A stretch of DNA of 63,992 nucleotides, counting the filler, from Reclinomonas americana ATCC 50394 (taxonomy: Eukaryota): assembly GCA_048213135.1 (NCBI GenBank). It is 56 parts of 56 records of this genome, joined end to end, with 100 filler letters (N's around TTAATTAATTAA, not from the genome) between each part and the next. Parts side by side here need not be neighbours in the genome. Positions count along the whole stretch, not along the records: positions 20,690 to 21,734 come from AFZH01026706.1; 55 more parts are not named here. One strand, written 5' to 3'. A model generated the notes under the pieces. It did not search any database and was not told the DNA's origin. It saw nothing but the letters and a program-made list of their open reading frames with translations. The translations under genes and the position numbers were made by a program. The number at the start of each line of letters is the position of its first letter. Position 1 is the stretch's first letter. Positions 2,305 to 33,812 of the stretch are shown here, in pieces.

Positions 2305-3355
2305 TGACCTGCTTCGGCGAGCAGTTCCTTGGCCTTCTCGGGGTCGTACGAGATCACGTCGGAGAGGTCCTCGTAGCCCGGGTCGAGCTCCGGGATCGGC
2401 CCGTAGAGCGTGGTGCCGGCGCCGACCGCCTCGATGAGGGCCTCATGGTCGATCGCCAGGCGCAGCGCTTCGCGCACGCGGACGTCGTCGAGCGGTGCCT
2501 TCTTGTTGTTGAAGGCCAGCGTCGCCTTGTCGGTGGTGCGACCCTTCGTGAGCGTGAAGTCGCCGGAGTCCTCGAGCTGCGATGCGAGGTTCGGGTCGAC
2601 CGCCGTCAGGACGTCGACGTCGCCTGCGAGCGCGGCGTTCACGCCGGCCGTGAAGTCGGGGATGTACTGGAACTCCACCTCGGCCACTCCGGCCGCTTCT
2701 CCCCAGTAGTCGTCGTTCCGCGCGAACGTGATGGTGCTGCCCTTGCTCCAGCGCGTGAGGGTGAAGGGACCCGTGCCGTTCTCGGCCGTCTTGAGGTCTG
2801 TCGTGTCGCCGGACTTGAAGATCAGGCCGGCGGGTCCGGTGAGCGCGAACAGGAAGTTCTGATTCGGCGCGGACAGCACGATCTCGACGGTCGTGGCGTC
2901 GGGGGCGGTGATCGAGGCGACCGAGGCGAACTCCGCGTTGCCCTGCACCGTCGTGTCGGTGCGCACGGTCTCGTAGGAGGCGACGACGTCGGCCGACGTG
3001 AGCGGCGTGCCATCGTGGAAGAGCACACCGTCGTTCAGCGTGAAGGTGTAGGTGAGTCCGTCGGCGGACACCTCGTAGTCGGAGGCGATCCGTCCCTCGA
3101 TCTCGTTGTCCTGCGTGCGTGTCACGAGACCCTCGTAGATGTTGTCGATGAGGATCTGCTCGATGGCGGCGCCGCTGGTGTGCCGGATGTCGAGGTTGGT
3201 CGGCTCGAGGACCAGACCGACGTGCAGGGTGGCGTCCGGGTCGGGCTTCCCGGGAGAGGACGACGGGGTCTCTGCGGGGGTGCCGGTGCAGGCGCTGAGG
3301 ATGACGGCGGTCGCCGCGAGGGCGGAGATCAGAGCAAGACGTCGGGTGCGTCGGA
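2305..3355 (-). CDS. Bacterial ABC transporter substrate-binding lipoprotein, family 5 (peptide/nickel), partial; Actinobacteria-like
   Basis: Lipoprotein signal RRTRRLALISALAATAVILSAC; IYEGLV, YTFTLNDGVLFHDGTPLTSADV, GTGPF, VREALRLAID, YDPEKAKELL; intronless, high GC3. Confidence 0.93.
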
Positions 3356-5771: not shown

Positions 5772-6028
5772 AGTACAGCTACCGCCCGATGCTCGGCCCT
5801 GTGCCGGAACTGCAGCTGCCGATGACCCTGCCGAATCTGCCCGACATTGCGGAGCTGTCGTGGGGAGCGGCCGTCGGTGCCGAGCTGCCCTCCATTGCGC
5901 CTTCGTCGGGCACAGCGGCGCTGCCAGATGTCGTCGGTTCCTCGTCCACGGCCTCGGTGCCGGCACCAGGTCCGCACCAGCCGCGTCCGTCGGCTCCCTC
6001 CGGCTCCGCCCCACCACCACCACCTCCG

Positions 6029-6063
<35 letters not shown>

Positions 6064-6745
6064 GGGTGGTGCACGCCCGCCTGGTCCCCCTGGCGCCCCG
6101 CCGCCACCGCCACCTCCAGGCATGCCGCCGCCACCACCTCCGCCTCCCGGTGCCCCACCGCCACCACCCGGCGCACCACCACCGCCACCGGGTGGTCTGC
6201 CCAGTGGCGTGCCACCCGTTGTGGCCGCTCCCAGCCGAGCGTTGCGTCTCTTGCTTTGCGCACACGTGTGTGTCGATCGATTCCTGCCGCTCACTCCTTG
6301 CTCTCCATCGCAGTGCACTGCTGGACAGCATCCGCAACCCCGGCATCCGTCTCAAGAAGGTCTCGCAGGAGGAGATCGAAAAGGAAAAGGACACCAAGCC
6401 ACCGCCAGCTGTTTCGTTCTCCACCCACATGTTCCTCATTCTCTTCCTTGCCACTCACGTGCTGTGCAGTCGGGCAACCCACAAATGGACATGATGGCCG
6501 CCCTGCAATCCAAGTTGAAATTGCGCCGCAAGGCCATGAGTGGCCGCGACGAGCCCGAAGCTCCGCGTGCCTCAGGCTCCGCACCTCCTCCACCCCCCGC
6601 CCCCGTGCCGGCCCCTGTGCCCGCCCAACAGCTGCCCGAGCTGCCCAGCTCCTCCTCAGCTCCTCCGGCCGCGCCTCGCCCGGCACTGCCGCCGCCTCCG
6701 CCTCGACCGCGCCCCGCAGACAGCGACAGCGATGAGGAGTGGTGA
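5772..6745 (+). CDS. WASHC1: WASH complex subunit 1 (Arp2/3 nucleation-promoting factor), C-terminal part, spliced
   Basis: YRPMLGPVPELQLPMTLPNLPDIA (end of WAHD region), poly-Pro, WH2 ALLDSIRNPGIRLKKV, central MMAALQSKLKLRRKAMSG, acidic tail DSDSDEEW-stop; introns begin at 6241 and 6411. Confidence 0.9.
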
Positions 6746-6932
6746 GCCGGCACTTGAGAGTCTGCAATTGAAGCGGAATTGGTGGAAGCCCGATCGACGG
6801 AATCTCGCNNNNNNNNNNNNNNNNNNNNNNNNNNNNNNNNNNNNNNNNNNNNTTAATTAATTAANNNNNNNNNNNNNNNNNNNNNNNNNNNNNNNNNNNN
6901 NNNNNNNNTGCTGGCAGGAGCGGCCTGCGATT

Positions 6933-7325
6933 TCACTTCGGCAGCGATGAGGCAGCCAGTTTCACCGCGTCACCGAGCTGCTTGCAGAACGCCGCAGCCG
7001 TGCTGCCCTGCGCTTTCGAAACCGCTTCGATGTCCTGGGTCACCCCCATCATCGACAGCGTACCCTTCTTGCCGAGCGCTTCGGCGGCGTCGCCGGCGCT
7101 CTTGTCGGCCGGCGGCGGGATCAGGGCCAGAACCTTGGTCTGAATCTCGACGACATCGGCGCCGACATGGCCCTTCTCGGCGCAGTAGCTGATGACGCCG
7201 AGCTGGTTGCGGCCGGCCTGGTAGGCAGCAGCGAGCTGGTCAGCCTGACTCTGGGCGAAGGCCTGACCGCTGGACAGAGCCGCCAACGCGGCAATGGCGC
7301 TGAAACGCTTGAAGGAAAGCAGCAT
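6933..7325 (-). CDS. Secreted small Ala-rich protein with two Cys (Alphaproteobacteria-like), 130 aa
   Basis: Sec signal MLLSFKRFSAIAALAALSSGQAFA, GAGAGA-like RBS, bacterial codon bias. Confidence 0.75.
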   Translation of the reverse strand: MLLSFKRFSAIAALAALSSGQAFAQSQADQLAAAYQAGRNQLGVISYCAEKGHVGADVVEIQTKVLALIPPPADKSAGDAAEALGKKGTLSMMGVTQDIEAVSKAQGSTAAAFCKQLGDAVKLAASSLPK

Positions 7326-7579
7326 GATAATCTCTCTCAAGTTGAACGCATCCGCAAATGCAAGCCCCGCTTCCCCAGCGCCCGCATAGCCTTCCAGCCC
7401 GATGCGACAAAGATACGGCAGAAAGACTCGGGCACGGCGAAAGCGAACCGCTCTTGTGACGATCTGATGCCGTTTCGCCGAAAGCGCCCCTGCCCGCTGC
7501 TGCCGCGGCTGAAGCGGAATGCCGTTCGTATTTTATGCGGCGTCCGCTTTTCCGCTTCGGCAGGAAGCCAATCCAGCCA

Positions 7580-7863
7580 TGAGACTTCTGCGCCAAGTGA
7601 AGCTTGGACGAACCGGCCCAACCCTCGACGAGCAGCTGACGCTGATCTGGAACAATCTGCGCGCGATCCTCGCTTCCGCGGAGATGACCGTCGACAACAT
7701 CGTGCGCCTGACCAGCTATCTGCGCGATGCCAGTTTCGTCGAAGCCGACCAGAGCGCTCGCCTCGCCGCTCTCGGCGGCCGCGCGATCCCGACGACCGCG
7801 ATCGTGGCGCAGACGCTGCATGAGGACTGGCTCGTCGAGATCGAGGTGATCGCCGCCGCCTGA
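7580..7863 (+). pseudogene. RidA/YjgF family protein, apparently lacking its N-terminal part
   Basis: EQLTLIWNNLRAIL..DNIVRLTSYL..WLVEIEVIAAA is typical RidA C-terminal sequence; upstream in-frame sequence lacks the usual 'lfvSG' strand. Confidence 0.6.
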
Positions 7864-9945
7864 ACGTACGCCCGGATCGCACGGATTCCGCTCATCTCGT
7901 TGGCAAAACGTTCACGCCGAGCTGCTAGCAGGTGCCCGGAAGTCGGCTGGGATGGNNNNNNNNNNNNNNNNNNNNNNNNNNNNNNNNNNNNNNNNNNNNT
8001 TAATTAATTAANNNNNNNNNNNNNNNNNNNNNNNNNNNNNNNNNNNNNNNNNNNNGCCGCCACCACGCGGGTCACTGGCCTCTTGCGCTGCGCGGTCACT
8101 GGCGAGACGGCGGTCACCTGCCGTACGTTGGACAGGGTGGCGAACTTTTCTGCCAGCGATGCACGGGGGCGGCGAGCGCTGAGGTCCACGTCGGCCCTCG
8201 CGTCCACCACTTCGTCGTCCATGTCCTCCAGGTCGGAGACGCCACGTGCGCGCTGCACGGCGGCGCGTCGTCGGTCCACTGTCGCTGCTGCCGTACGCAG
8301 ACGGGTCTGCGCCTGCACGCGCGCCACGGCCGTCGACGCCGCCTGCCGCTTAATCGGCACGCGGAGCGGGCTCCTCACATCGTCGTCCACATCGTCAGCG
8401 TAGCGATGCACGGCCGCTGCGCTGCCCACCGGCTCAATCTCATACTCGTCGCTGCGGAAGCGGCCGACCGCCAGTGGCACTGGCGACAGCGGCGCCGAAC
8501 GCACCGAGGTCGGGCGCGGCACTGGCGACACGGCGGCGGCGGCAGCCGAAACCGGTCGGCGAGTGACGGTCTCGCGAGGGGAGCCCGCCGGACTGTACCG
8601 CATGATCGTGAGACGGAGCACATACAGAGGAGGGCGAGGGAAGGCCAAGCAAGACTCAACGAGTTCACAATGCGGATCTTGAACTTCTTTGGCTGCTCCG
8701 CGGCCACAGGTGACGGGGAGGCGGAGAGCGGAGTGCGAGCACGACGTGCTGAGACGGGGGGAGGAGGAGGAGTCGCCATTCCCTGCGTGGTGCGCACCAC
8801 CGGTCGCGGTGGCGCCATGTTTGTCTTGACCGGGCGCACCACACCAGCTGCACCGCCGCCACCCACCACCACACTGCACACAGAACAGCAACAGGTCAGA
8901 CACCAGGCCAGATCGCCCAAAAAACAGCATCGCCCCACGCACCCTCGGCGCTGTCGTGCCAACAACCGCGCATCACGAATCGTGTTCATCGCCGACCCGG
9001 TCCGCTGCAGCGCCGGCGACCGCTGCATCACCACCTTGCCACCAGCCGCGGCATTGCCTCCACGACGGTTCGCCAGCACCGCCTGACGCTTCGTCGCCTG
9101 TGCACNNNNNNNNNNNNNNNNNNNNNNNNNNNNNNNNNNNNNNNNNNNNTTAATTAATTAANNNNNNNNNNNNNNNNNNNNNNNNNNNNNNNNNNNNNNN
9201 NNNNNGTTGTATGATGCCCATAGACGACAGAGAAGCGACAGCGATGAAGACGCCCCGTATGGAGTGTATGTTCTTCCGGCTGTTTCGCAAGCACACGCCG
9301 TGCGCTCGCATGCCGTCAGGCATGGCGAGACACGGAGATGTGCGTGTATTGAGAGGTTGTGGGGACCGCGGCGTCGGCCTCAGAGAGAGCATGGGAGAAA
9401 CAACCCTCTGATTATGTGTTGGAGATTGCCAGGATCGCTGCGGCTTGTAGTTTTAGTGGCGATCGGGAATGAAGGGCTGGCTGTGGATGTGGTACATGTT
9501 GTGAGAAGTGCAGGTCATTCTGTTCGCCGTCTTTGGACGGCATAGGTGTTGTTAAGAAGAGTGTGTGGGAGTGCTGTTTTTCTTTTCTGTCGGTGTGGTA
9601 TGTGGCTTTATCTAGGAACGTTGATGGGGCCGGGAGCTCGGGTGATCGGAGCTCAGTAGATGCCCATGCGCTGTGAGCGCGAGTAGCAATGACCGCGGGT
9701 TTGAACCCGGGAGCGGCGTAGAACACATGATAGTGGATGTGTAGATATCGAAGATTCTTTTCACCTTGTCGCCAAGGCGACAGAAGTGGTGTCAAGTGGG
9801 CACACGCTTGCGTGTGAGGGCACTTGTTTATCATGAGGAACCGCCTACGTGCGTACTCGTAACCGTGATCGTTGGCACTGTGTGCCCATGAGGGGAGAAC
9901 GGAATATCGATGGGTGATCGGAGTTATTTGAAGGATATGCCTGTT

Positions 9946-10029
9946 TCTGGCGTTCCGCACGGGCACCCCTGAGTAGGGTGGTGCGAATCTGGTGTTCCGC
10001 ACGAGCACCCCTGAGTCGGGTGGTGCGAG
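9946..10029. repeat. Two imperfect tandem copies of a 42-bp unit within an intronless 275-aa minus-strand ORF
   Basis: tctggcgttccgcacgggcacccctgagtagggtggtgcga at 9946 and a near copy at 9988. Confidence 0.85.
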
Positions 10030-11536
10030 GAGGCATACTGCCTTGGTCGCTATGCGCGAGAAACAGGATCGATAATTGGAGATTCGAAAGTGGAATCTTT
10101 TTCTAAGCTGAGGATCGGCGTTTCGGTTGTGGGGGTCGTTGCAAGGAGCGTGGGAAACGTCTCGCACCGGATTTAATCCGATGAGCACCCTCTTTGGGGT
10201 CGGAAAGACGGAAGAGGAAGAGAACCCAAAAATGGTCAATTCGAACCGGTTCGAANNNNNNNNNNNNNNNNNNNNNNNNNNNNNNNNNNNNNNNNNNNNT
10301 TAATTAATTAANNNNNNNNNNNNNNNNNNNNNNNNNNNNNNNNNNNNNNNNNNNNTTGTTTTGAAGAATGGCAGGCGCGCCGCGGGCGATTCCCATTGGT
10401 GTGGCCTCTGCCGCGGCTCCTCCGCGCGGCCGCCTCGGCTCCTCCCCCGCGCCGACCTCCATCGACGAGCTTCCGGAGCTGGAGCTGCCGCCGGCGAGCC
10501 CGCCCGTGACTGCACACATTCGCACCATGCTCGGCGCCGCCACTGCTGGCTCCTCCTCCTCGTCGTCGCTGCCACGTGGCATCCCGTCAGGCAGCGCGGC
10601 GGCCGCGCATAGTGGCTCGCCGGTGCTGGCGACACTGGCGGCGACGCGAGCGGCGGGGGTGATTGGCGCCGACGGCGGCAGTCAGGAGGTCGACGATGGC
10701 GGGGATGGCGATGATGGCGACAGCGATCTGGGTGTAGATCTGGATGATGATGAGGTGATTGGGGCGCGGCCGAGCAGCAGCAAGCGGCGGCCCGGGCGGA
10801 GGCGACAGCAGCGAGAGAAGAGGAGGAGGATGAGATGATGATGCAGATGGATGGAGTGGATGGCGCGGCGGTGGAGTGGCGCGGAGAGGGCGATGGCGCG
10901 CTGTTGACGGCGAGAACACGCAAGGAGCGTGGGCGGGCGGTGGTCGAACGCAGTTGCGCGCACATGTCTCACACTCACACAGACTGCACTCTTTCACTCA
11001 AACTGCTCGTGTGTTGCAGCGGCACACCACTGGACGCAGTTGCGCGCGCTGCTGGCCTCGCTGCAACGCGCATTCGACTCGGAGTTGGAGCGCTGTGTCA
11101 TTCGCAATCCGCTGCTCGTGTTGCGTGAGAGCTCTTCCACACAAGCCTTTTTGTAATGTGCCGTGACACTCACACTGTGTGAGCGCGTGTGTAGTTTTGG
11201 GTATCAGTGGCGAGATGCGGATGCCGAGGTGCGGTGGGAGGCCGGAGTGAGTGCGTCGTCGGCGGCGGCGGGGCCGCGACCGGAGGGCGAGGTGGTGCCG
11301 ACGGCCGAGTATGTGTCGCGGCTGAGCTCGTGGGTCAATGGCAAGCTGGGTTTCTCGCCGGTGACCGGCAACCCCCCTGTCGAGTGTTGCGTGAGGAGGG
11401 AAGGNNNNNNNNNNNNNNNNNNNNNNNNNNNNNNNNNNNNNNNNNNNNTTAATTAATTAANNNNNNNNNNNNNNNNNNNNNNNNNNNNNNNNNNNNNNNN
11501 NNNNCGTTGTATGCCTCGTTGAAGAAGACTGACTGT

Positions 11537-11581
<45 letters not shown>

Positions 11582-11979
11582 TTGCCCCGTTCCACTCGTT
11601 CTCCAATCCTGTGCGCTTGGTTGTCAACAGTTGGTGACTGTCACCAGCTTCTCCACTCATCGTCACTTCCTCTCGGTTCCCTCCTCGATGTATGCTTGTT
11701 GAGGAAGCTGGTTGTCATCTGTCTCTTTCTCTCTTTGCCCCACTCCACTCGCCCTCCATCCCTATGTGCTTGGTTGTCGACAACACTGACTGTCACCAGC
11801 TTCTTGCCAAATCATCGTATTCTTCGTCGGAATTCACGCTTCCCTTGCAGTGTGTTCTTACTCGTTGAATTACCGTCACCTCCTTGCTCTCTCCTTGCCT
11901 CCTTCTCTCTCTCTCTCTCTCATGTCCTTTCCCCGCTCCCTTTCCTTCCTCTCCAAGAAAAACTGACTGGTTTTCCGCC

Positions 11980-12274
11980 CACCTCGTTCGTCAATCCACC
12001 ACACAGTCCCGACGACAAGCACCTGGTCGCCGGCGGCAGCACCGGCATGCTCTTCTTCTGGGACGTGGGCTCCGGCCGCGCCGAACTGACCGTGGCCTCG
12101 CCCAGCGTCACCAAGTTGCGCGCACACCATTCAGCGCAACAATATCACACAACATTGCTCACCATTCCACACAGTTCGGTGACCTCAGTGGCGTGGAGCT
12201 CACTGACCAACGAGCTGCTCGTGTCGACATTAGAGTCGGGCGAAATTGCAGTCTTTGCGCCCTTCCGTGCGTGA
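11980..12274 (+). CDS. WD40-repeat protein C-terminus (possibly ATG16-like)
   Basis: SPDDKHLVAGGSTGMLFFWDV ... SSVTSVAWS ... stop. Confidence 0.6.
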
Positions 12275-12516
12275 CATAATAATAGTAATAACGAAGCAAG
12301 AAGGAAACCATGATGTGAATGTGAATGATATCAATGTTCATTCACGCTCTCTCTTTCAAGCAATTCGCGCGCGTGTTCTTGTGCGTGCGTGCATGTCTGT
12401 GTTAGAAGAAGAGGCCTCCGAATCCGAAACCAAAGATGCCAAACGGGTCGGCAGGAGCAGGCGGCGGCGCCGGTGCCTCCTCAGTCACCTGTTGCACACA
12501 TGTGAGCACAATGTGC

Positions 12517-12552
<36 letters not shown>

Positions 12553-13068: not shown

Positions 13069-13701
13069 TCACGGCATGGACGCAGAGTCGTGATTGTGTC
13101 TTGATGCCATGCTGATCAGCGACTGACGCTGTGGGGAGGGCAAGACGACAAGGGAAGAGGGACAAGAGGTGAGTTGCTTGTTCCGCGTGTGCAGGGGAGG
13201 GGGGGTGTACGCAACATCGGGAGAAATCCCAAACGACGCAATAGCTTCGTCGCCAGCCTCCGAGGCCACGCGACGCGTCACCTTGAGGTGAGCACGCTCA
13301 CGCAGCCGCTTGATTGCATCCTGCGCAGGGGCGAATCGCACCGTGAGCCACGGTGCGACAGGAATATGGGAGCACGGACACACACACACACACTGTACCT
13401 GGATCTTATTCATAATCTCCGGCTTGGACACCTCGTGTGACACGACCGGGACCATGGCGTTCCGCACCTCGGCCGCAGTGACCTCCACTGGCCTGCTGAC
13501 AGGCAACGTGCCTTTCTCTCCAAGAATGAAGGCGTGCCTCTGTGCACGACAACCAGAGTCAGAGAAGAACGACCCACCACGACGAAACCCCGGAGAAAAC
13601 ACACACACACCGTCATCTCGTCCACCGACAAGCGGCGACGCGGATCACGCTCCAGCGCCCGTTGCATAAAGTCAATGAGCTCGGCCGACACCGACGCTGG
13701 A
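13069..13701 (-). CDS. Ser/Thr protein kinase C-terminus (CaMKK-like), spliced
   Basis: VSAELIDFMQRALERDPRRRLSVDEM / HAFI (subdomains X-XI) followed by VEVTAAEVRNA, similar to the CaMKK tail. Confidence 0.6.
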
Positions 13702-13801
13702 NNNNNNNNNNNNNNNNNNNNNNNNNNNNNNNNNNNNNNNNNNNNTTAATTAATTAANNNNNNNNNNNNNNNNNNNNNNNNNNNNNNNNNNNNNNNNNNN
13801 N

Positions 13802-14120
13802 GGGGGAAGACCAAAGGGGGAAGACCAAAGGGGGAAGACCAAAGGGGGAAGACCAAAGGGGGAAGACCAAAGGGGGAAGACCAAAGGGGGAAGACCAAAG
13901 GGGGAAGACCAAAGGGGGAAGACCGAAGGGGGAAGACCGAAGGGGGAAGACCGAAGGGGGAAGACCGAAGGGGGAAGACCGAAGGGGGGAAGACCGAAGG
14001 GGGAAGACGAAGGGGAAAAGCGAAAGCGGAAGACGGAAGGGGGGAAGACGGAAGGGGGGAAGATGGAAGGGGGGAAGACGGAAGGTGGGAAGACGGAAGG
14101 GGGAAGACCGAAGGGGAAGA
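13802..14120. repeat. Purine-rich minisatellite, ~14-bp unit GGGGGAAGACC(A/G)AA, probably intronic
   Basis: Direct tandem array degenerating rightwards. Confidence 0.95.
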
Positions 14121-20689: not shown

Positions 20690-20899
20690 GAGTGGGCGTC
20701 CGCCTGGGGGTTGTCGCCACCGCCGGTGTCGCGCGATGCGATCGCCAGGGCGGCGCGTGGCTGTTTCGAAGTCTGGGGTGGCGAGCGGCCGGCCCTACGC
20801 GGGCTCAGTGAGGCCGACGTCCTGGCCATCTACGTCGTCGCGTTCAGCGAGTCGCGGATGCGCAGCTGTCTTTCGACCCTGAGAGAGGAGGTGAACTGA
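20690..20899 (+). CDS. C-terminal end of a bacterial gene translationally coupled to the first RiPP precursor; possibly the cluster dehydrogenase
   Basis: Open from the contig edge (EWASAWGLSPPP...LSEADVLAIY...EEVN*); TGA overlaps the precursor ATG (TGATG). Confidence 0.55.
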   Translation, partial: EWASAWGLSPPPVSRDAIARAARGCFEVWGGERPALRGLSEADVLAIYVVAFSESRMRSCLSTLREEVN

Positions 20900-21030
20900 T
20901 GGTCATCACGCAGGAGAACGGATTCGATTTCGAAGAGATCGACGCTGCGGATGCTCCGAGCGCGGACTCCTTCTGGTGGGGAATGTGGTCGGGCATCATC
21001 GTCGTCGGCACCGTCGTCGCGGCCACCTGA
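20899..21030 (+). CDS. mpaA: Daptide-type RiPP precursor peptide A1 (43 aa): MVITQENGFDFEEIDAADAP-SADSFWWGMWSGIIVVGTVVAAT
   Basis: RBS GAGAGGAGGTGA; leader FEEIDAADAP; hydrophobic core; C-terminal Thr; translated by hand. Confidence 0.88.
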   Translation: MVITQENGFDFEEIDAADAPSADSFWWGMWSGIIVVGTVVAAT

Positions 21031-21089
21031 TCGGCATTCCCGTTGTGCTCTCCGGGGACAAAACCAGGACGAAGAGAGGAGGTGACCAG

Positions 21090-21212
21090 ATGGAACTCTC
21101 GCCGCAACTTCGATTCGAAGAGATCGAAGGCATGGAGGCTCCCGACTCCGACTTCTATGTCGGGTTCAAGCTCGCGATCGTGCTCGGACTCATCGCCGTG
21201 GCCGCGACCTGA
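21090..21212 (+). CDS. mpaA: Daptide-type RiPP precursor peptide A2 (40 aa): MELSPQLRFEEIEGMEAP-DSDFYVGFKLAIVLGLIAVAAT
   Basis: RBS GAGAGGAGGTGA; leader FEEIEGMEAP; hydrophobic core; C-terminal Thr. Confidence 0.9.
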   Translation: MELSPQLRFEEIEGMEAPDSDFYVGFKLAIVLGLIAVAAT

Positions 21213-21255
21213 TCGTCGGCTCTCGGCCGGATGCAACGAAGAACGGAGGTGAAAC

Positions 21256-21381
21256 GTGCAACAGAACACCACAGGACTCTGGTTCGAAGAGCTCGACGAG
21301 GCAGACGCCCCGATGAGCCCGGAGGAATGGGCCTTCAACATCATCACGTTCGGAGCAGCGCTCGCCGCTCTCGCCACGTGA
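21256..21381 (+). CDS. mpaA: Daptide-type RiPP precursor peptide A3 (41 aa, GTG start): MQQNTTGLWFEELDEADAP-MSPEEWAFNIITFGAALAALAT
   Basis: RBS CGGAGGTGA; leader FEELDEADAP; hydrophobic core; C-terminal Thr. Confidence 0.88.
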   Translation: MQQNTTGLWFEELDEADAPMSPEEWAFNIITFGAALAALAT

Positions 21382-21387
21382 CAAACG

Positions 21388-21416
21388 GTGGGCGGTCGTC
21401 GATCGCGACCGCCCAC
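21388..21416 (+). terminator. GC-rich stem-loop between the precursor array and the methyltransferase
   Basis: GTGGGCGGTCG (21388-21398) / CGACCGCCCAC (21406-21416): perfect 11-bp stem, 7-nt loop, no U-tract. Confidence 0.65.
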
Positions 21417-21448
21417 TCCATCGCACCCACCCGACGAGAGGATGACAG

Positions 21449-21734
21449 ATGGTGGATACCAGCCCACCGAAGCCGAACGCCTCAGACAGCGGTCCCCGGT
21501 GTCTCGCCACGATCCTGACCGAGGGGAGAGAGCCGGCCGATCTGTACTCCGTCGAGGGATCGCGCCTCTACGAGAGGTTCGCCGAGTTCGATGACTCGGA
21601 GCAGCGCGAACTCCTTCGCCGATTGTCCCGGGCGGACGGCGACATCCTCGAGCTGGCCGCCGGCGGCGGACGGCTCACGCTTCCCTTTCTGTCTCTCGGC
21701 CGACCCGTCGTCGGGATCGATCTGTCGCCGGAGA
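21449..21734 (+). CDS. mpaM: Class I SAM-dependent methyltransferase, N-terminal part (daptide MpaM-like)
   Basis: Motif I ILELAAGGGRLT and motif II VVGIDLSPE; GAGAGGA RBS; directly downstream of the precursors; truncated by contig end. Confidence 0.8.
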
Positions 21735-22794
21735 NNNNNNNNNNNNNNNNNNNNNNNNNNNNNNNNNNNNNNNNNNNNTTAATTAATTAANNNNNNNNNN
21801 NNNNNNNNNNNNNNNNNNNNNNNNNNNNNNNNNNAGTGCATGATGTTGCATTCGCAGGCTACTTTTGCCCATGCTGCTCCATCATCCAGTCAACGACGGC
21901 GGTGGGAGGCAGCTTGGCGGGCTCGATGGCAGGTGCTATGGTCAGTGGCATGTAATGTGCACGACGGCAGCGAGGGATCATGATGTCGATCTTTTTACTG
22001 TGATTTTTTGTAGCTGCGACAGTTGCTACGAGTACATCATGTGTGTACGTGTGTGTATGTGTGTGTGTGAGAGAGAGAGAGAAGAAGGTCAGCAAGAAGC
22101 ACGTCATCTGAGCGGAGTGAGTAGAGCACCACGAAGAGCACATGCATATGTACAGCGATTTTTCCGACAGACTTGCTTGCATTATCGATGCACACAGTCA
22201 ATTCACCCTGCAGGCAGGTGCGTATGGAGACAAGTCAGACACAGGCAGAGAGGGAGAGGAAGAGAGGGCAGCGAGAGGGAGCGATGAGAGAAGCCATATC
22301 GAGGGAAGACGAATGCAACGCTGCGCAGAGTGAGAGACATTGAGAGCAAGCATCGCTCTCGAGATGTATCCAAGTCAAAGAGAGACAGACCACATGCACA
22401 AGGCAAGCACGAACAAAACGGCGATCGAGAAGAACCAAGTTTTCGGAAATTTGATTTCGCTCCATTTTGTGCGATATCGATTCCGCGCGCGAAGAGTGTT
22501 TGCAACCCACCCGAGAAAACAACATGGAAGAAGATCCGCAGGTGACTGGTCTCTGTGACTGCTTCAAGTCCTGCAAGCTGTGGTATGTGTGGTAATGCGT
22601 GCCAATGCATGTGTGTAGTTGAAGCGATTCATTGCGTGCGTGCGCCTGTGCAGCCTTTGCGGCACGTTCTGTTGGTGTCTGGTGGCTGGCAAGAATGCAC
22701 AGATGATCTCCATGGTGCAGTCGGGTAACATTGATGTTATGGAGCTGAGCCAGAAGTGCTCGTGCTCCATTTGTGTCGAGTCGTGCCTGAGGTG

Positions 22795-23014: not shown

Positions 23015-23924
23015 ATGTCCCTGGCTCCCTCTCCACTCACTCTCCTCCCCTCCAAGCGCATCACTGGTCACAGTGGCTCAGTGACTTGTGTCGCCATCAC
23101 TCCCGATGGTCAGCACATAATCTCTGGGAGTGAAGACAGGACAGTGCGCGTGTGGTCTTTGGCGACTGGAGCTGAGGTGCGACGACTGGTGGTCACTGGC
23201 GAGTGGAGAGGAGGTGAGGCGATTCGAGGGCCACACTAGTGAAGTGAACTCTGTTGCCGTCACGCCGGATGGTCAGCACGTTGTTAGTGGCAGCTGGGAC
23301 ACGACTGTTCGAGTATGGTCCCTGGAGAATGGCGCAGAAGTACGACGGATGAAGGGACATAGAGGTGAGGTGCTGTCGGTTGCCATTGCACCCGATGGAC
23401 AGCACGTTGTGAGTTGCAGTGGAGACGGGACTATGAGAGTGTGGTCGATGACGACAGGCAAGGAAGTGCGACGGTTTGAAGGACACACTCGTAACAAGTT
23501 GCACGTCTCCGTCACCCCCGACAGTGAGCACGTTGTGAGTGGAGGCAATGCTGCGGACCCGATTGTGCGAGTGTGGTCAGTGGAAGAGAGGTGCAGCAGC
23601 TGGAGGGACACGATCTGTCGGTGCGCTCTGTTGCCGTCTTACCTGATGGTCGGCATGTCGTGAGTGGTAGCTTTGACAAGACAGTGCGAGTGTGGTCCAC
23701 TCCATGTGGCCTCGCTGTGTTTGAGCTCTACACAGCACGAGCGGCAATGCGAGCCGTGCAGGAGATGCAGCGAGATGACGAGGGCGAGGACGACGAAGAG
23801 CCTGATTCTTGGTGTCTGGTGGAGATTGTGATGCGCTGCTTCATCGTGGAGGAGGCGGTGGTGGTGCTGTACCGGCGCAGCATGGAACTCGAGTCGCACT
23901 TGTGTGAGGAGACAGAGAGAAAGG

Positions 23925-23929
<5 letters not shown>
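23015..23929 (+). pseudogene. Intronless WD40-repeat gene with two frameshifting deletions
   Basis: Repeats GHxxxVxSVAxTPDGQHVVSGSxDxTVRVWSL spread over three ORFs with frame breaks at ~23190 and ~23579. Confidence 0.8.
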
Positions 23930-26636: not shown

Positions 26637-27434
26637 CTACATGTAAATCTTGATGTACCGACCCACCGGCCTGCGGCAGAGTGGGCACGAGGGCACGTGT
26701 TGTACACAGCTGCCGCACAAAACATGTCCGCAGTCGACCAGTGCGTGGTCTGGGCGCTCAGACCAGCACACGGGGCACGTCGGTGCCGCAGCAACTGGTT
26801 CCGGTTCCAGCGACGCCGCTGCCGATGAAGGCGTTCGCCCGGCGTGCTGCGGTGACGACGACGGTGCTACTGCTGCTGCTGCTGCTGCTGCAGAAGCACG
26901 ATGCGATGACGGTGGAGCTGATGGTGCTGCCGCACGGTATGATGAAGGCGGTGCTGACGGCGCCAGAGCTGCCTCGCGGTGTGATGACGGTGGAGCTGCT
27001 GGTGCTTCAGCTGCTGCTCGATACGACGCTGGCTCCGCCACTCGACGCGACGCCAGCGCCGCACCTGCGGCCTCGACTCGGTTCGACGACGGTGGAGCTG
27101 ACGGTGCGACAGCGGCAGCGCGATGCGACGACGGTGGTGCGGAGGGCGCCACTGCTGCTGCTGCTGCTGGTGCTCGGTGTGACGACGGCGCGCGAGGTGC
27201 TACGATTGACACTGGTGGTGGCTGGAGGGGCGGAGGAGCACGCCGCAGCAGCAACTGATCGGCGTCGTCGTTGAGAACGGCCTCCATCTCGTGGAATACG
27301 GTCCCATCCAGCTCGCCATTCGCATACAGCTCCATGGCAATGTCCATCGGCGTGCGATTCGTGGGGTCTTGCGCACGAATGTCGGCGCCATGGTCGACCA
27401 GCATGCGAACCATGTCCGCATGACGACCGGCCAC
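26637..27434 (-). CDS. Ankyrin-repeat + C-terminal RING-HC E3 ligase, last exon
   Basis: GRHADMVRMLVDHGADIRAQDPTNRTPMDIA; APSAPPSSHR repeats; CPVC..CGHVLCGSC..CPLCR. Confidence 0.9.
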   Translation of the reverse strand: MAGRHADMVRMLVDHGADIRAQDPTNRTPMDIAMELYANGELDGTVFHEMEAVLNDDADQLLLRRAPPPLQPPPVSIVAPRAPSSHRAPAAAAAVAPSAPPSSHRAAAVAPSAPPSSNRVEAAGAALASRRVAEPASYRAAAEAPAAPPSSHREAALAPSAPPSSYRAAAPSAPPSSHRASAAAAAAAVAPSSSPQHAGRTPSSAAASLEPEPVAAAPTCPVCWSERPDHALVDCGHVLCGSCVQHVPSCPLCRRPVGRYIKIYM

Positions 27435-27563
27435 CTGCGACAGACGGAAATCGTTCAGTTACCNNNNNNNNNNNNNNNNNNNNNNNNNNNNNNNNNNNNN
27501 NNNNNNNTTAATTAATTAANNNNNNNNNNNNNNNNNNNNNNNNNNNNNNNNNNNNNNNNNNNN

Positions 27564-32653: not shown

Positions 32654-33115
32654 ATGCAGACAGATTACCAAGGATCCGAAACCGACCGCGCGCAGGACAC
32701 GCTGGCCATCCGCGCATCCCTCAACCGCATGGTCGAGGCATGGGACGACGGCGACGCCGCGAAGTTCGCCGCCGAATTCTCTGCGGAGGCGACCTACGTC
32801 ATCTTCGTCGGACTCGTCTACGAAGGGCGCGCCGAGATCGAGGAGGGACACGTCCCGGTGCTCGAGAAGTGGCAGAAGGGCACACGCATGTCACAGCACG
32901 TGCGCAGCATCCGGTTCCTCGGCGACGACGTCGCGACGGTGCTGAGCGAGGGCGGCATCGGCAAGCGGCGGGTGCGTCACGACAAGATCCAGACCTACGT
33001 GTTCCGCCGGGACTTCGAGGGCCGCTGGGCCTGCGAGTCGTTTCAGAACACGAAGATGAATCGACTGTTCATCCGGATCAACGCGCTCAGTACCCGGCGA
33101 ACGCGTCGGTCGTGA
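32654..33115 (+). CDS. SgcJ/EcaC family (SnoaL/NTF2-like) protein
   Basis: AWDDGDAAKFAAEFSAEATYVIFVG..GRAEIEEGH..SIRFLGDDVA..SFQNT. Confidence 0.85.
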   Translation: MQTDYQGSETDRAQDTLAIRASLNRMVEAWDDGDAAKFAAEFSAEATYVIFVGLVYEGRAEIEEGHVPVLEKWQKGTRMSQHVRSIRFLGDDVATVLSEGGIGKRRVRHDKIQTYVFRRDFEGRWACESFQNTKMNRLFIRINALSTRRTRRS

Positions 33116-33812
33116 GGTTCCGGGCCTTCTGCAGCGCGGGCGCGAGATCGGCGATCAGCCGGGGCGGCCGGAGATGAACGCGTGTNNNNNNNNNNNNNNN
33201 NNNNNNNNNNNNNNNNNNNNNNNNNNNNNTTAATTAATTAANNNNNNNNNNNNNNNNNNNNNNNNNNNNNNNNNNNNNNNNNNNNAAGGTGTGCATCTCT
33301 GCAACGAATACGACTCTTCCGAGATTACTCAATAATCAATTCACAACAACAGGTCACACCCGGACTCTTCCACGGCTACCACGTGCACTTGGTGATTCCC
33401 GAGTCGCAAGAGCACCTGCAGGAGCTGGCGCAGTTCTTCCAGCGCTCATCAAAAGGCAGCAGCTCGAGCCTCGAGTCACTGGACTGACACAATGGTGTGC
33501 TGTGTGCCCCTCTCGCGCGTCCTCCTTTTTATTCTTTTTGCAGGCAGCATATGAGAACAAGCTTGTTTTGTGTTTGGTGCTTTTTTCGTGTCTTATTCTG
33601 CCGCCGTGTACTTTTCCCGAGTGCCCCCCGCTCGTCGCATGCACACACGCATGCGTTATCGCACCTCCCCTCCGTACGTATTATCCGCCCCACCTCCTTC
33701 TGCTGCAAGCAGGATTATTATGTTGGCTAAAATGTATTGCGGTTCAACTTTTTTGACCGATTTGTTTTCGAAAGAAACAAAACACACCCACACACACACA
33801 CACACACACCCA

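What the first reader, a model, noticed from the sequence alone, without database searches (positions are those of the whole stretch)
20690..21734. Hidden daptide-type RiPP cluster: three tandem Thr-terminated precursor peptides plus a methyltransferase on a bacterial contaminant contig
Seen: three 40-43 aa ORFs (20899-21030, 21090-21212, 21256-21381), each with a strong GGAGGTGA RBS. A1 and A3 are absent from the ORF track, and A2 appears only as the tail of the mis-started ORF 20976-21212. They share an acidic leader F-E-E-(I/L)-(D/E)-x-x-(D/E)-A-P and have divergent hydrophobic 22-23 aa cores, all ending in Ala-Thr (SADSFWWGMWSGIIVVGTVVAAT; DSDFYVGFKLAIVLGLIAVAAT; MSPEEWAFNIITFGAALAALAT). 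A class I SAM methyltransferase follows. Established: daptides, described from Microbacterium, have such leaders and an invariant C-terminal Thr. That Thr is oxidatively decarboxylated, transaminated and dimethylated to N,N-dimethyl-1,2-propanediamine, giving membrane-interacting peptides with two amino termini. Inference: this is part of such a cluster from an actinobacterium in the protist culture, and the cores may be new congeners. A role against the protist is speculative.
Basis: partly seen in the sequence, partly recalled or inferred. Interest (0 to 1): 0.9.

Follow-up and report, generated by a model that had tools for sequence, protein, structure and literature searches.

The report
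Fragment of a known Microbacterium daptide cluster
This 1-kb bacterial contig is a real piece of a daptide peptide-antibiotic-like gene cluster from a Microbacterium, but the same peptides are already listed in public databases and in a published daptide catalogue, so it is ordinary.

Summary
Window 20690-21734 is one 1045-bp contig, one of 56 short contigs joined by N spacers. It carries three Thr-terminated 40-43 aa genes, each 3-4 nt behind a GGAGGTGA ribosome-binding site. A metagenome contig that is 99.0% identical over all 1045 bases carries the whole cluster in the order RRE protein, aminotransferase, dehydrogenase, A1-A3, methyltransferase, HExxH protease, ABC transporter. So the daptide reading is supported. 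It is not new. All three exact peptides are in public collections. Dataset S1 of Dommaraju et al. 2025 lists the cluster of Microbacterium sp. A8/3-1, with an identical A1, an identical A3 core and an A2 that differs by one residue. Two small extras emerged. This rare clade (2 of 57 loci with peptides in the genus sample) has Ala or Val at leader position -4, where Met-to-Ala stopped MpaA1 processing. A GC-rich hairpin after the last precursor gene recurs in 54 of 59 loci.

The parts
20690..20899 (+). 3' end (69 codons plus TGA) of the daptide dehydrogenase gene (MpaC/DapC type, Fe-dependent alcohol-dehydrogenase family). It runs in from the contig's left end, and its stop overlaps the A1 start (TGATG).
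   Evidence: One search gives the translation. NF041822 daptide_DH, E 3.9e-4, model positions 315-359 of 363; 67 of 69 residues identical to the C-terminus of the 422-aa dehydrogenase ORF of L013. That ORF scores 268.2 bits on NF041822 (cut-off 300).
20887..20894 (+). Ribosome-binding site GGAGGTGA of A1, 4 nt before the ATG.
20899..21030 (+). Precursor A1 (43 aa): a 20-aa acidic leader ending EEIDAADAP and a 23-aa core with three Trp, ending Ala-Thr.
   Evidence: NF041805 MpaA1 family, 38.5 bits (cut-off 40), E 5.8e-10; identical to the first precursor of Microbacterium sp. A8/3-1.
21078..21085 (+). Ribosome-binding site GGAGGTGA of A2, 4 nt before the ATG.
21090..21212 (+). Precursor A2 (40 aa): leader ending EEIEGMEAP and a 22-aa core ending Ala-Thr.
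   Evidence: NF041808 daptide-type RiPP, 34.5 bits, above the cut-off of 25; its 90% cluster has 13 members, several named 'daptide-type RiPP' in Microbacterium.
21245..21252 (+). Ribosome-binding site GGAGGTGA of A3, 3 nt before the GTG.
21256..21381 (+). Precursor A3 (41 aa, GTG start): leader ending EELDEADAP and a 22-aa core ending Ala-Thr.
   Evidence: NF041807 MpaA3 family, 27.4 bits (cut-off 40), E 2.1e-6; core identical to the third precursor of Microbacterium sp. A8/3-1.
21387..21417 (+). GC-rich hairpin (13 pairs including two G-U, loop of 5) starting 6 nt after the A3 stop, with no T tract behind it. Inferred to be a leaky terminator or an mRNA-stabilising 3' structure between the precursor genes and the methyltransferase gene.
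   Evidence: 81 nt fold at -31.4 kcal/mol, z -2.2; a hairpin of at least 10 pairs lies within 50 nt after the last precursor stop in 54 of 59 loci, against 6 of 84 spacers between precursor genes. Stem sequences differ between clades. The simple terminator scan did not call it.
21449..21734 (+). 5' part (95 codons) of the daptide methyltransferase gene (MpaM/DapM, class I SAM-dependent). It runs off the contig's right end.
   Evidence: NF041820 daptide_MTase, 82.3 bits, model positions 3-69 of 243; weak Methyltransf_25 match; 98% identical to the 274-aa ORF of L013, which scores 211.5 bits (cut-off 175).

Best explanation
The contig is the middle of a daptide biosynthetic operon from a Microbacterium that is a minor component of a mixed assembly. 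The gene order is dehydrogenase (tail), A1, A2, A3, hairpin, methyltransferase (head). The mechanism below is inferred by homology with the Mpa system of M. paraoxydans. Each precursor is translated with an acidic leader. An MpaB-type DUF-RRE protein binds the leader and hands the C-terminal Thr to the dehydrogenase, which oxidatively decarboxylates it to a ketone. A PLP aminotransferase converts the ketone to an amine. The methyltransferase whose head lies on this contig dimethylates that amine to N2,N2-dimethyl-1,2-propanediamine. An intramembrane HExxH protease cuts after the leader's last Pro, and an ABC transporter exports the product. The result would be three hydrophobic 22-23-residue peptides with two amino termini that insert into membranes. 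Their calculated [M+H]+ values are 2423.26, 2266.32 and 2307.22. Shown here: the genes, their family membership, the synteny, and the complete enzyme set in a 99% identical relative. Inferred: every chemical step and the activity of the products.
For: All five pieces hit daptide-specific NCBIfam models. The contig aligns end to end with L013 9242-10286 at 99.04% identity (10 mismatches, no gaps). L013 carries daptide_RRE (151.8 bits, cut-off 150), daptide aminotransferase (515.9/450), dehydrogenase (268.2/300), A1-A3, methyltransferase (211.5/175), HExxH protease (330.5/300) and an ABC ATPase. L001 (Microbacterium sp. 179-I 3D2 NHS) has the same set and order. The daptide methyltransferase model is over its cut-off in 59 of 401 sampled genomes of that genus and in 0 of 14 control genomes. 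Thr-terminated peptides with the leader motif lie beside it in 57 of the 62 sample loci read. My mass routine reproduces the published m/z 2363, 2232 and 2339 from the cores of L016 (PMC10036551 Fig. 2 legend). The peptides show purifying selection. The pathway, the leader motif ELExMEAP, cleavage after Pro and the -17 Da change come from PMC10036551 (sections 6, 7 and passages of 9-10).
Against: Only 1045 bp of this organism's cluster are present. No aminotransferase or Fe-ADH domain appeared among the 112 largest ORFs of the window's 56 contigs. No whole genome is held. So the cluster's completeness in this very organism is unproven. A1 (38.5 bits) and A3 (27.4 bits) fall below the equivalog cut-off of 40, and the L013 dehydrogenase falls below its cut-off of 300. 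A1 and A3 carry Ala at leader position -4, where M(-4)A in MpaA1 abolished oxidative decarboxylation. No product has been observed.
Confidence: 0.93

Rival explanations
1. The cluster is genuine, but only A2 is an efficient substrate. A2 is the only precursor with Met at leader position -4. A1 and A3, with Ala at -4, would be poorly processed or unprocessed, or would need a re-shaped RRE pocket.
For: In MpaA1, M(-4)A and L(-7)A abolished ketone formation (PMC10036551 section 10). Among 143 precursor-like peptides in 59 loci, position -4 is M 76, I 32, L 27, A 7 and V 1. All 8 Ala/Val cases are A1 or A3 of this clade.
Against: A1 and A3 are conserved with their Ala/Val at -4 in four loci that are only 67-99% identical in DNA, which argues that they are used. 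F(-10), I/L(-7), E(-8) and P(-1) are kept. In the T. fusca system, leader truncations and even a leader supplied in trans are tolerated (PMC12670281 section 12).
Confidence: 0.12
2. In this organism the locus is a decaying or incomplete remnant and makes nothing.
For: Only a 1-kb piece is seen. The other daptide genes were not found among the window's other contigs.
Against: All five reading frames on the contig are open. The 10 differences from L013 comprise 1 intergenic change, 5 synonymous changes and 4 conservative or single replacements in the enzymes, with none changing a peptide. L013 has every gene intact. The absence of the other genes is expected from a fragmentary assembly of 1-kb contigs.
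Confidence: 0.04
3. The final C-terminus is not Dmp but another daptide-type terminus, such as a primary or monomethyl amine or a YcaO-made imidazoline.
For: Such variants exist in other daptide clusters (PMC12670281 abstract and sections 6 and 12).
Against: A daptide methyltransferase gene directly follows the precursors. No YcaO, LanKC or other tailoring family was hit among the 22 ORFs of L013 or the 23 ORFs of L001 that I scanned. Only selected ORFs were scanned.
Confidence: 0.05
4. The three small ORFs are chance ORFs in high-GC DNA, or a gene on the opposite strand is the real one.
For: A 276-codon open frame lies on the minus strand (20847-21674), as is common in GC-rich DNA.
Against: That frame has no Pfam match (protein 37). 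The plus-strand frames have GC3 of 0.78-0.84, family-specific HMM hits, ribosome-binding sites, and third-position-biased substitutions.
Confidence: 0.01

Closest known systems
Predicted daptide cluster of Microbacterium sp. A8/3-1 (NZ_CP158357.1, 4110638-4111121), listed in Dataset S1 of Dommaraju et al. 2025, ACS Cent Sci (PMC12670281)
   Same: It has three precursors in the same order. A1 is identical over all 43 residues. The A3 core is identical. A2 differs by one core residue (Ile to Val), and the A3 leader differs by one residue (Asp to Asn).
   Different: There are a few substitutions. That cluster is also only a bioinformatic prediction, with no product characterised. I saw the dataset passages only, not the whole file.
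mpa daptide cluster of Microbacterium paraoxydans DSM 15019 (Ren et al. 2023, Nat Commun, PMC10036551)
   Same: It is the same RiPP class in the same genus. The order dehydrogenase, A1, A2, A3, methyltransferase is the same, as seen in L016, whose cores give the published masses. Both have an acidic leader with E(-8), a hydrophobic residue at -7 and P(-1), an invariant C-terminal Thr, and a hairpin after the last precursor gene.
   Different: The cores are different families: A1 is 37% identical to the L016 A1 over the whole precursor. The methyltransferase head is only 43% identical. Here A1 and A3 have Ala at -4 instead of Met or Ile. The A1 core has three Trp.
Hominicin of Staphylococcus hominis (PMC12749797)
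   Same: It carries the class-defining Dmp C-terminus made from Thr. It is a hydrophobic, membrane-active peptide (passages read).
   Different: Its cluster is the Bacillota type, with lanthipeptide-like dehydration, D-Ala formation, N-terminal dimethylation and the immunity protein HomI. It has proven antibacterial pore formation. Mpa daptides showed only haemolysis and no antibacterial activity.
tfDap and saDap clusters of Thermobifida fusca and Streptomyces azureus (PMC12670281)
   Same: They share the core DapB, C, D, M, P and T enzyme set.
   Different: They also carry YcaO (imidazoline terminus) and/or LanKC/LanJ tailoring. No such family was hit in the ORFs of L013 or L001 that I scanned.

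Membership tests
Daptide RiPP cluster | Precursor peptides with an invariant C-terminal Thr | tested here: met
   All 3 of 3 peptides end in Ala-Thr-stop. Thr is invariant in the 24-sequence alignment.
Daptide RiPP cluster | Conserved acidic leader motif (ELExMEAP-like) ending in Pro at the cleavage site, followed by a core rich in aliphatic residues | tested here: met
   The leaders end EEIDAADAP, EEIEGMEAP and EELDEADAP. E(-8) and P(-1) are invariant in the alignment. The last 12 core residues have mean hydropathy 1.8-2.6. One deviation: Ala at -4 in A1 and A3.
Daptide RiPP cluster | Match to curated daptide precursor models (NF041805-NF041808) | tested here: inconclusive
   A2 scores 34.5 bits, above the cut-off of 25. 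A1 scores 38.5 and A3 27.4, both below the equivalog cut-off of 40, although these are their best and specific hits (E 5.8e-10 and 2.1e-6).
Daptide RiPP cluster | Daptide-type SAM methyltransferase (MpaM/DapM) in the cluster | tested here: met
   The 95-aa head scores 82.3 bits on NF041820 over model positions 3-69. A fragment cannot reach the whole-protein cut-off of 175. The 98% identical full-length ORF in L013 scores 211.5.
Daptide RiPP cluster | Fe-dependent alcohol-dehydrogenase-type oxidative decarboxylase (MpaC/DapC) | tested here: inconclusive
   Only the last 69 residues are on the contig (NF041822, E 3.9e-4). They are 67/69 identical to the L013 ORF, which scores 268.2 bits, below the cut-off of 300 but far above any other family.
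Daptide RiPP cluster | DUF-RRE accessory protein (MpaB/DapB), PLP aminotransferase (MpaD/DapD), RRE-fused intramembrane protease and ABC transporter | not testable with these tools
   These genes are not on the 1045-bp contig, and no genome is held for the window. None was found among the 112 largest ORFs of the window. All are present and over their cut-offs in the 99.0% identical L013 and in L001.
Daptide RiPP cluster | Product carries a C-terminal (S)-N2,N2-dimethyl-1,2-propanediamine (-16.94 Da) | not testable with these tools
   This needs mass spectrometry or NMR. The expected [M+H]+ values are 2423.258, 2266.321 and 2307.221.

The most novel reading that the evidence does not exclude
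This rare Microbacterium clade has re-wired leader recognition. It accounts for 2 of the 57 loci with peptides in a sample of 401 genomes of the genus. It has Ala or Val at position -4, where Met-to-Ala kills processing in the Mpa system. It makes a Trp-rich trio of daptides whose combined membrane activity is directed at the eukaryote it lives with, rather than at bacteria. The conserved hairpin after the last precursor gene would set the ratio of precursor to enzyme.
Probability: 0.07. Interest if true: 0.55.

Novelty: already known. Interest (0 to 1): 0.18.

Why it matters
It matters little as a discovery. Daptides have been a described RiPP class since 2023, with curated NCBIfam models, and this peptide trio is already in public collections and in a published list of predicted precursors. 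Three modest points remain.

- A correct RiPP call was made from raw sequence on a 1-kb contaminant contig, which shows that such fragments in mixed eukaryote assemblies can be attributed.
- The clade is a natural variant at a leader position that was essential in MpaA1. That makes it a ready test case for how DapB RRE domains read leaders.
- The hairpin after the last precursor gene recurs across Microbacterium daptide operons. The two main daptide papers do not mention a hairpin, stem-loop or attenuator, and 'terminator' appears once, for the T7 terminator in a cloning method (term searches of their main texts). It probably sets precursor transcript abundance, as hairpins after structural genes are thought to do in other RiPP operons. 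That comparison is recalled, not checked here.

Tried and rejected
**Whole-genome look-up.** No genome is held for the window, so the rest of the cluster could not be sought in the same assembly.

**Pfam scan of the window's other contigs.** I scanned the two largest open frames of each of the 56 contigs (112 proteins, E <= 1e-5). No aminotransferase or Fe-ADH domain was found. The hits were a mix of eukaryote-type (WD40, RING) and bacteria-type (SBP_bac_5, aldo-keto reductase, 2-hydroxyacid dehydrogenase) domains.

**DNA search in 401 genomes of the genus**. Only G001 (73%) and G045 (67%) gave long matches, and G229, G148 and G191 gave short matches in the A2 region. The 138 'genomes with a match' at E <= 0.001 are mostly 25-50-nt chance matches in GC-rich DNA, and I do not count them.

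**Supplements of Ren et al. 2023.** Only 2 files could be read, and none of the three cores is in them. The precursor spreadsheet (MOESM4 xlsx) and the PDFs could not be read. So I cannot say whether these peptides were already among the 1441 precursors listed in 2023.

**RNAalifold on 58 post-stop segments**. MAFFT could not align the stems across clades, and the consensus had only 6 pairs at -0.33 kcal/mol. This attempt says nothing on covariation. The hairpin claim rests on single-sequence folds and on a count of perfect stems (stems of at least 9 pairs in 41 of 59 loci after the last peptide, against 3 of 84 inner spacers).

**Consensus terminator scan**. It did not call the hairpin, which has no T tract. 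Its one hit lies inside A2 and is at chance level.

**Complex prediction of the L013 MpaB-type protein with A1**. The result was no verdict. The score was 0.54, but a control with chain 1 replaced scored 0.41. This is evidence neither for nor against binding.

**Other calls without result.** One search was a comparison in the wrong reading frame and is void; one search replaced it. The search of earlier findings returned nothing for this genome.
Full report
**What is there.** The 63,992-base window is not one stretch of genome. It is 56 contigs of 1035-1052 bp joined by 100-nt N/TTAATTAATTAA spacers. The finding's coordinates, 20690-21734, are exactly one such contig of 1045 bp with GC 0.646. 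On its plus strand lie five coding pieces:
- an open frame running in from the left end (20690-20899, 69 codons), whose TGA overlaps the next ATG;
- A1 (20899-21030, 43 aa);
- A2 (21090-21212, 40 aa);
- A3 (21256-21381, 41 aa, GTG start);
- an open frame from 21449 that runs off the right end (95 codons).

Each peptide gene is preceded at 3-4 nt by GGAGGTGA. That octamer occurs 8 times in the whole window (shuffles: mean 2.63, largest 7), and 3 of the 8 are these sites. All three peptides end in Ala-Thr. Third-position GC is 0.78-0.84 in each of the five frames. The 276-codon open frame on the minus strand has no Pfam match.

**What it is.** Against NCBIfam release 20.0 all five pieces hit daptide-specific models:
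- A1 hits NF041805, MpaA1 family (38.5 bits, cut-off 40).
- A2 hits NF041808, daptide-type RiPP (34.5 bits, cut-off 25).
- A3 hits NF041807, MpaA3 family (27.4 bits, cut-off 40).
- The right-hand fragment hits NF041820, daptide methyltransferase (82.3 bits over model positions 3-69 of 243).
- The left-hand tail hits NF041822, daptide dehydrogenase (E 3.9e-4, positions 315-359 of 363).

Pfam adds only weak class I methyltransferase matches.

**Relatives with the whole cluster.** One scan of metagenome contigs with the methyltransferase head returned L013, from a 60,629-bp contig. The window's contig aligns to L013 9242-10286 over all 1045 bases at 99.04% identity, with 10 mismatches and no gaps. 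Of the 10 differences, 1 is intergenic, 5 are synonymous and 4 change a residue in the two enzymes. None changes a peptide. The NCBIfam scan of 22 ORFs of L013 gave, in order:

| L013 coordinates | Gene | Bits / cut-off |
|---|---|---|
| 5869-6921 | daptide RRE protein | 151.8 / 150 |
| within 6543-8186 | daptide aminotransferase | 515.9 / 450 |
| 8183-9451 | dehydrogenase | 268.2 / 300 |
| 9451-9933 | A1, A2, A3 | as (A3 28.1) |
| 10001-10825 | methyltransferase | 211.5 / 175 |
| 10822-12537 | HExxH intramembrane protease | 330.5 / 300 |
| 13389-14114 | ABC ATPase | not applicable |

Unassigned ORFs of permease size follow the ATPase. The one scan of genome contigs returned L001 from Microbacterium sp. 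179-I 3D2 NHS, whose methyltransferase head is 79% identical. L001 has the same genes in the same order. No YcaO or lanthipeptide-type tailoring family was hit among the ORFs I scanned in either locus.

**How common it is.** In 401 genomes sampled from the genus of G001, the daptide methyltransferase model is over its cut-off in 59, and 61 match at E <= 1e-30. It is over the cut-off in 0 of 14 control genomes. I read 62 loci from these genomes around the methyltransferase. Thr-terminated peptides with the leader pattern were found in 57 of them. The five without peptides are L047 (cut by a contig end), L049, L067, L068 and L070. The cores fall into families:
- The Mpa type accounts for the majority, 47 loci.
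- A second type accounts for 8 loci (L005-L007, L051, L063-L066).
- The window's type accounts for 2 loci (L001 and L004), plus L013 and the window itself.

The three cores of L016 give calculated Dmp-modified [M+H]+ of 2363.31, 2232.28 and 2339.29. These equal the m/z 2363, 2232 and 2339 reported for the M. paraoxydans products (Fig. 2 legend). This result shows that L016-type loci are the characterised mpa type, and it validates my mass routine.

**It is already catalogued.**
- An exact look-up found all three peptides in the public protein collection. A1 is on 8 contigs, one of 4,461,099 bp.
- A2 sits in a 13-member cluster with names such as 'daptide-type RiPP [Microbacterium maritypicum]'.
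- A3 sits in a 6-member cluster. Two members carry names, and these read 'hypothetical protein' or 'uncharacterized protein'.
- Dataset S1 of Dommaraju et al. 2025 (PMC12670281; passages seen by term search) lists three precursors for Microbacterium sp. A8/3-1, NZ_CP158357.1, at 4110638-4111121.
- There, A1 is identical to the window's, the A3 core is identical (leader Asp to Asn), and A2 has one core change (Ile to Val).
- The window's exact A2 core is absent from that file. It does occur in P0008, which NCBI names a daptide-type RiPP.
- That paper counts 1,034 putative daptide clusters and 3,013 putative precursors (section 6). The 2023 paper counts 483 and 1,441 (section 6).
- I could not read the 2023 precursor spreadsheet.

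**Mechanism (inferred by homology).** In Ren et al. 2023 (sections 6, 7 and passages of 8-10) the steps are as follows. MpaB, a DUF with a C-terminal RRE, works with MpaC to oxidatively decarboxylate the C-terminal Thr to a ketone. MpaD transaminates the ketone. MpaM dimethylates the amine to give Dmp. The leader is removed after the conserved Pro, for a net change of -17 Da. Applied to this contig, the cores begin after Pro20 (A1), Pro18 (A2) and Pro19 (A3). The expected [M+H]+ values are 2423.258, 2266.321 and 2307.221. The leaders carry net charges of -4 to -6, and the last 12 core residues are strongly hydrophobic. As for activity, Mpa daptides were haemolytic, more so in combination, and not antibacterial or antifungal. 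Hominicin, a Bacillota daptide, forms pores in bacterial membranes. A membrane-active trio is therefore the likeliest function. A role against a co-cultured eukaryote remains speculation.

First, leader position -4. Among 143 precursor-like peptides in 59 loci, -4 is Met 76, Ile 32, Leu 27, Ala 7 and Val 1. The pattern I searched with left that position free. All eight Ala/Val cases are A1 or A3 of the window's clade. In MpaA1, M(-4)A and L(-7)A abolished ketone formation. Either the RRE pocket has shifted in this clade, or contacts at F(-10), I/L(-7) and E(-8) suffice. Leader tolerance is wide in the T. fusca system. A structure-prediction test of A1 with the L013 RRE protein gave no verdict.

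Second, a 13-pair GC-rich hairpin at 21387-21417, starting 6 nt after the A3 stop. A hairpin of at least 10 pairs lies within 50 nt after the last precursor stop in 54 of 59 loci, against 6 of 84 spacers between precursor genes. Mean fold energies are -28.9 and -11.1 kcal/mol. The five misses are second-type loci, whose longer hairpins appear in 78-nt folds. Stem sequences differ between clades, so the structure rather than the sequence is kept. A formal covariation test failed for want of a usable alignment. I read the hairpin as a leaky terminator or a 3' stabiliser that raises precursor mRNA over enzyme mRNA. This is inference. The main texts of the two principal daptide papers contain no 'hairpin', 'stem-loop' or 'attenuat'. 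'Terminator' occurs once in the 2023 text, for the T7 terminator in a cloning method.

**Source organism.** A1's identity to Microbacterium sp. A8/3-1 (Microbacteriaceae) places the contig in that genus. Two other whole contigs of the window match G001: 2305-3355 at 87% and 45859-46898 at 82%. So does a 101-nt stretch (33084-33184) at 87%. Other contigs carry WD40 and RING domains and microsatellites. A minor Microbacterium component in a eukaryote's assembly is therefore well supported. What the eukaryote is was not examined.

**Verdict.** The finding is a fragment of a known, curated RiPP class, and its peptides are already in public lists. Novelty: already known. Interest is low. The -4 variation and the recurrent hairpin are small, testable side points.

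Noticed in passing
window 21387-21417; L001, L004-L007, L013-L069 after the last precursor gene: A strong GC-rich hairpin follows the last precursor gene. It has at least 10 pairs in 54 of 59 daptide loci, against 6 of 84 inner spacers. Stem sequences differ between clades. A search of the main texts of the two principal daptide papers found no mention of a hairpin, stem-loop or attenuator.
   Followed up: partly
window 20947-20949 (A1) and 21301-21303 (A3), leader position -4; also L001, L004, L013: Ala or Val sits at leader position -4 only in this clade's A1 and A3 (8 of 143 peptides). Everywhere else it is Met, Ile or Leu. Met-to-Ala at this position abolished processing of MpaA1.
   Followed up: partly
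window 2305-3355, 45859-46898, 33084-33184: Two other whole contigs of the window match a Microbacterium genome (G001) at 87% and 82%. They carry an SBP_bac_5 solute-binding protein and an aldo-keto reductase. A 101-nt stretch of a third contig (33084-33184) matches at 87%. The bacterial component is therefore spread over several 1-kb contigs.
   Followed up: partly
window 23121-23926, 50424-51461, 26640-27458, 22037-22100: These contigs carry WD40-repeat and RING-finger open frames and GT/GA microsatellites, so they look eukaryotic. The window is a mixed assembly.
   Followed up: no
L013 3518-4504 versus L001 800-3700: The cluster sits in different surroundings in the two relatives. A XerC-like tyrosine recombinase ORF lies about 1.4 kb upstream of the RRE gene in L013. 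PP2C phosphatase and FHA-domain genes lie upstream in L001. The cluster may move between genomic sites.
   Followed up: no
L067 (G353), L068 (G179): Two genomes have daptide-methyltransferase matches just over the cut-off, inside much longer open frames (614 and 764 codons). My pattern found no Thr-terminated peptides within 2.5 kb. These may be fused or differently organised clusters.
   Followed up: no
G170 contig C3 (L049, L061): One genome has two daptide methyltransferase matches about 230 kb apart on the same contig. Precursor peptides were found beside only one of them.
   Followed up: no
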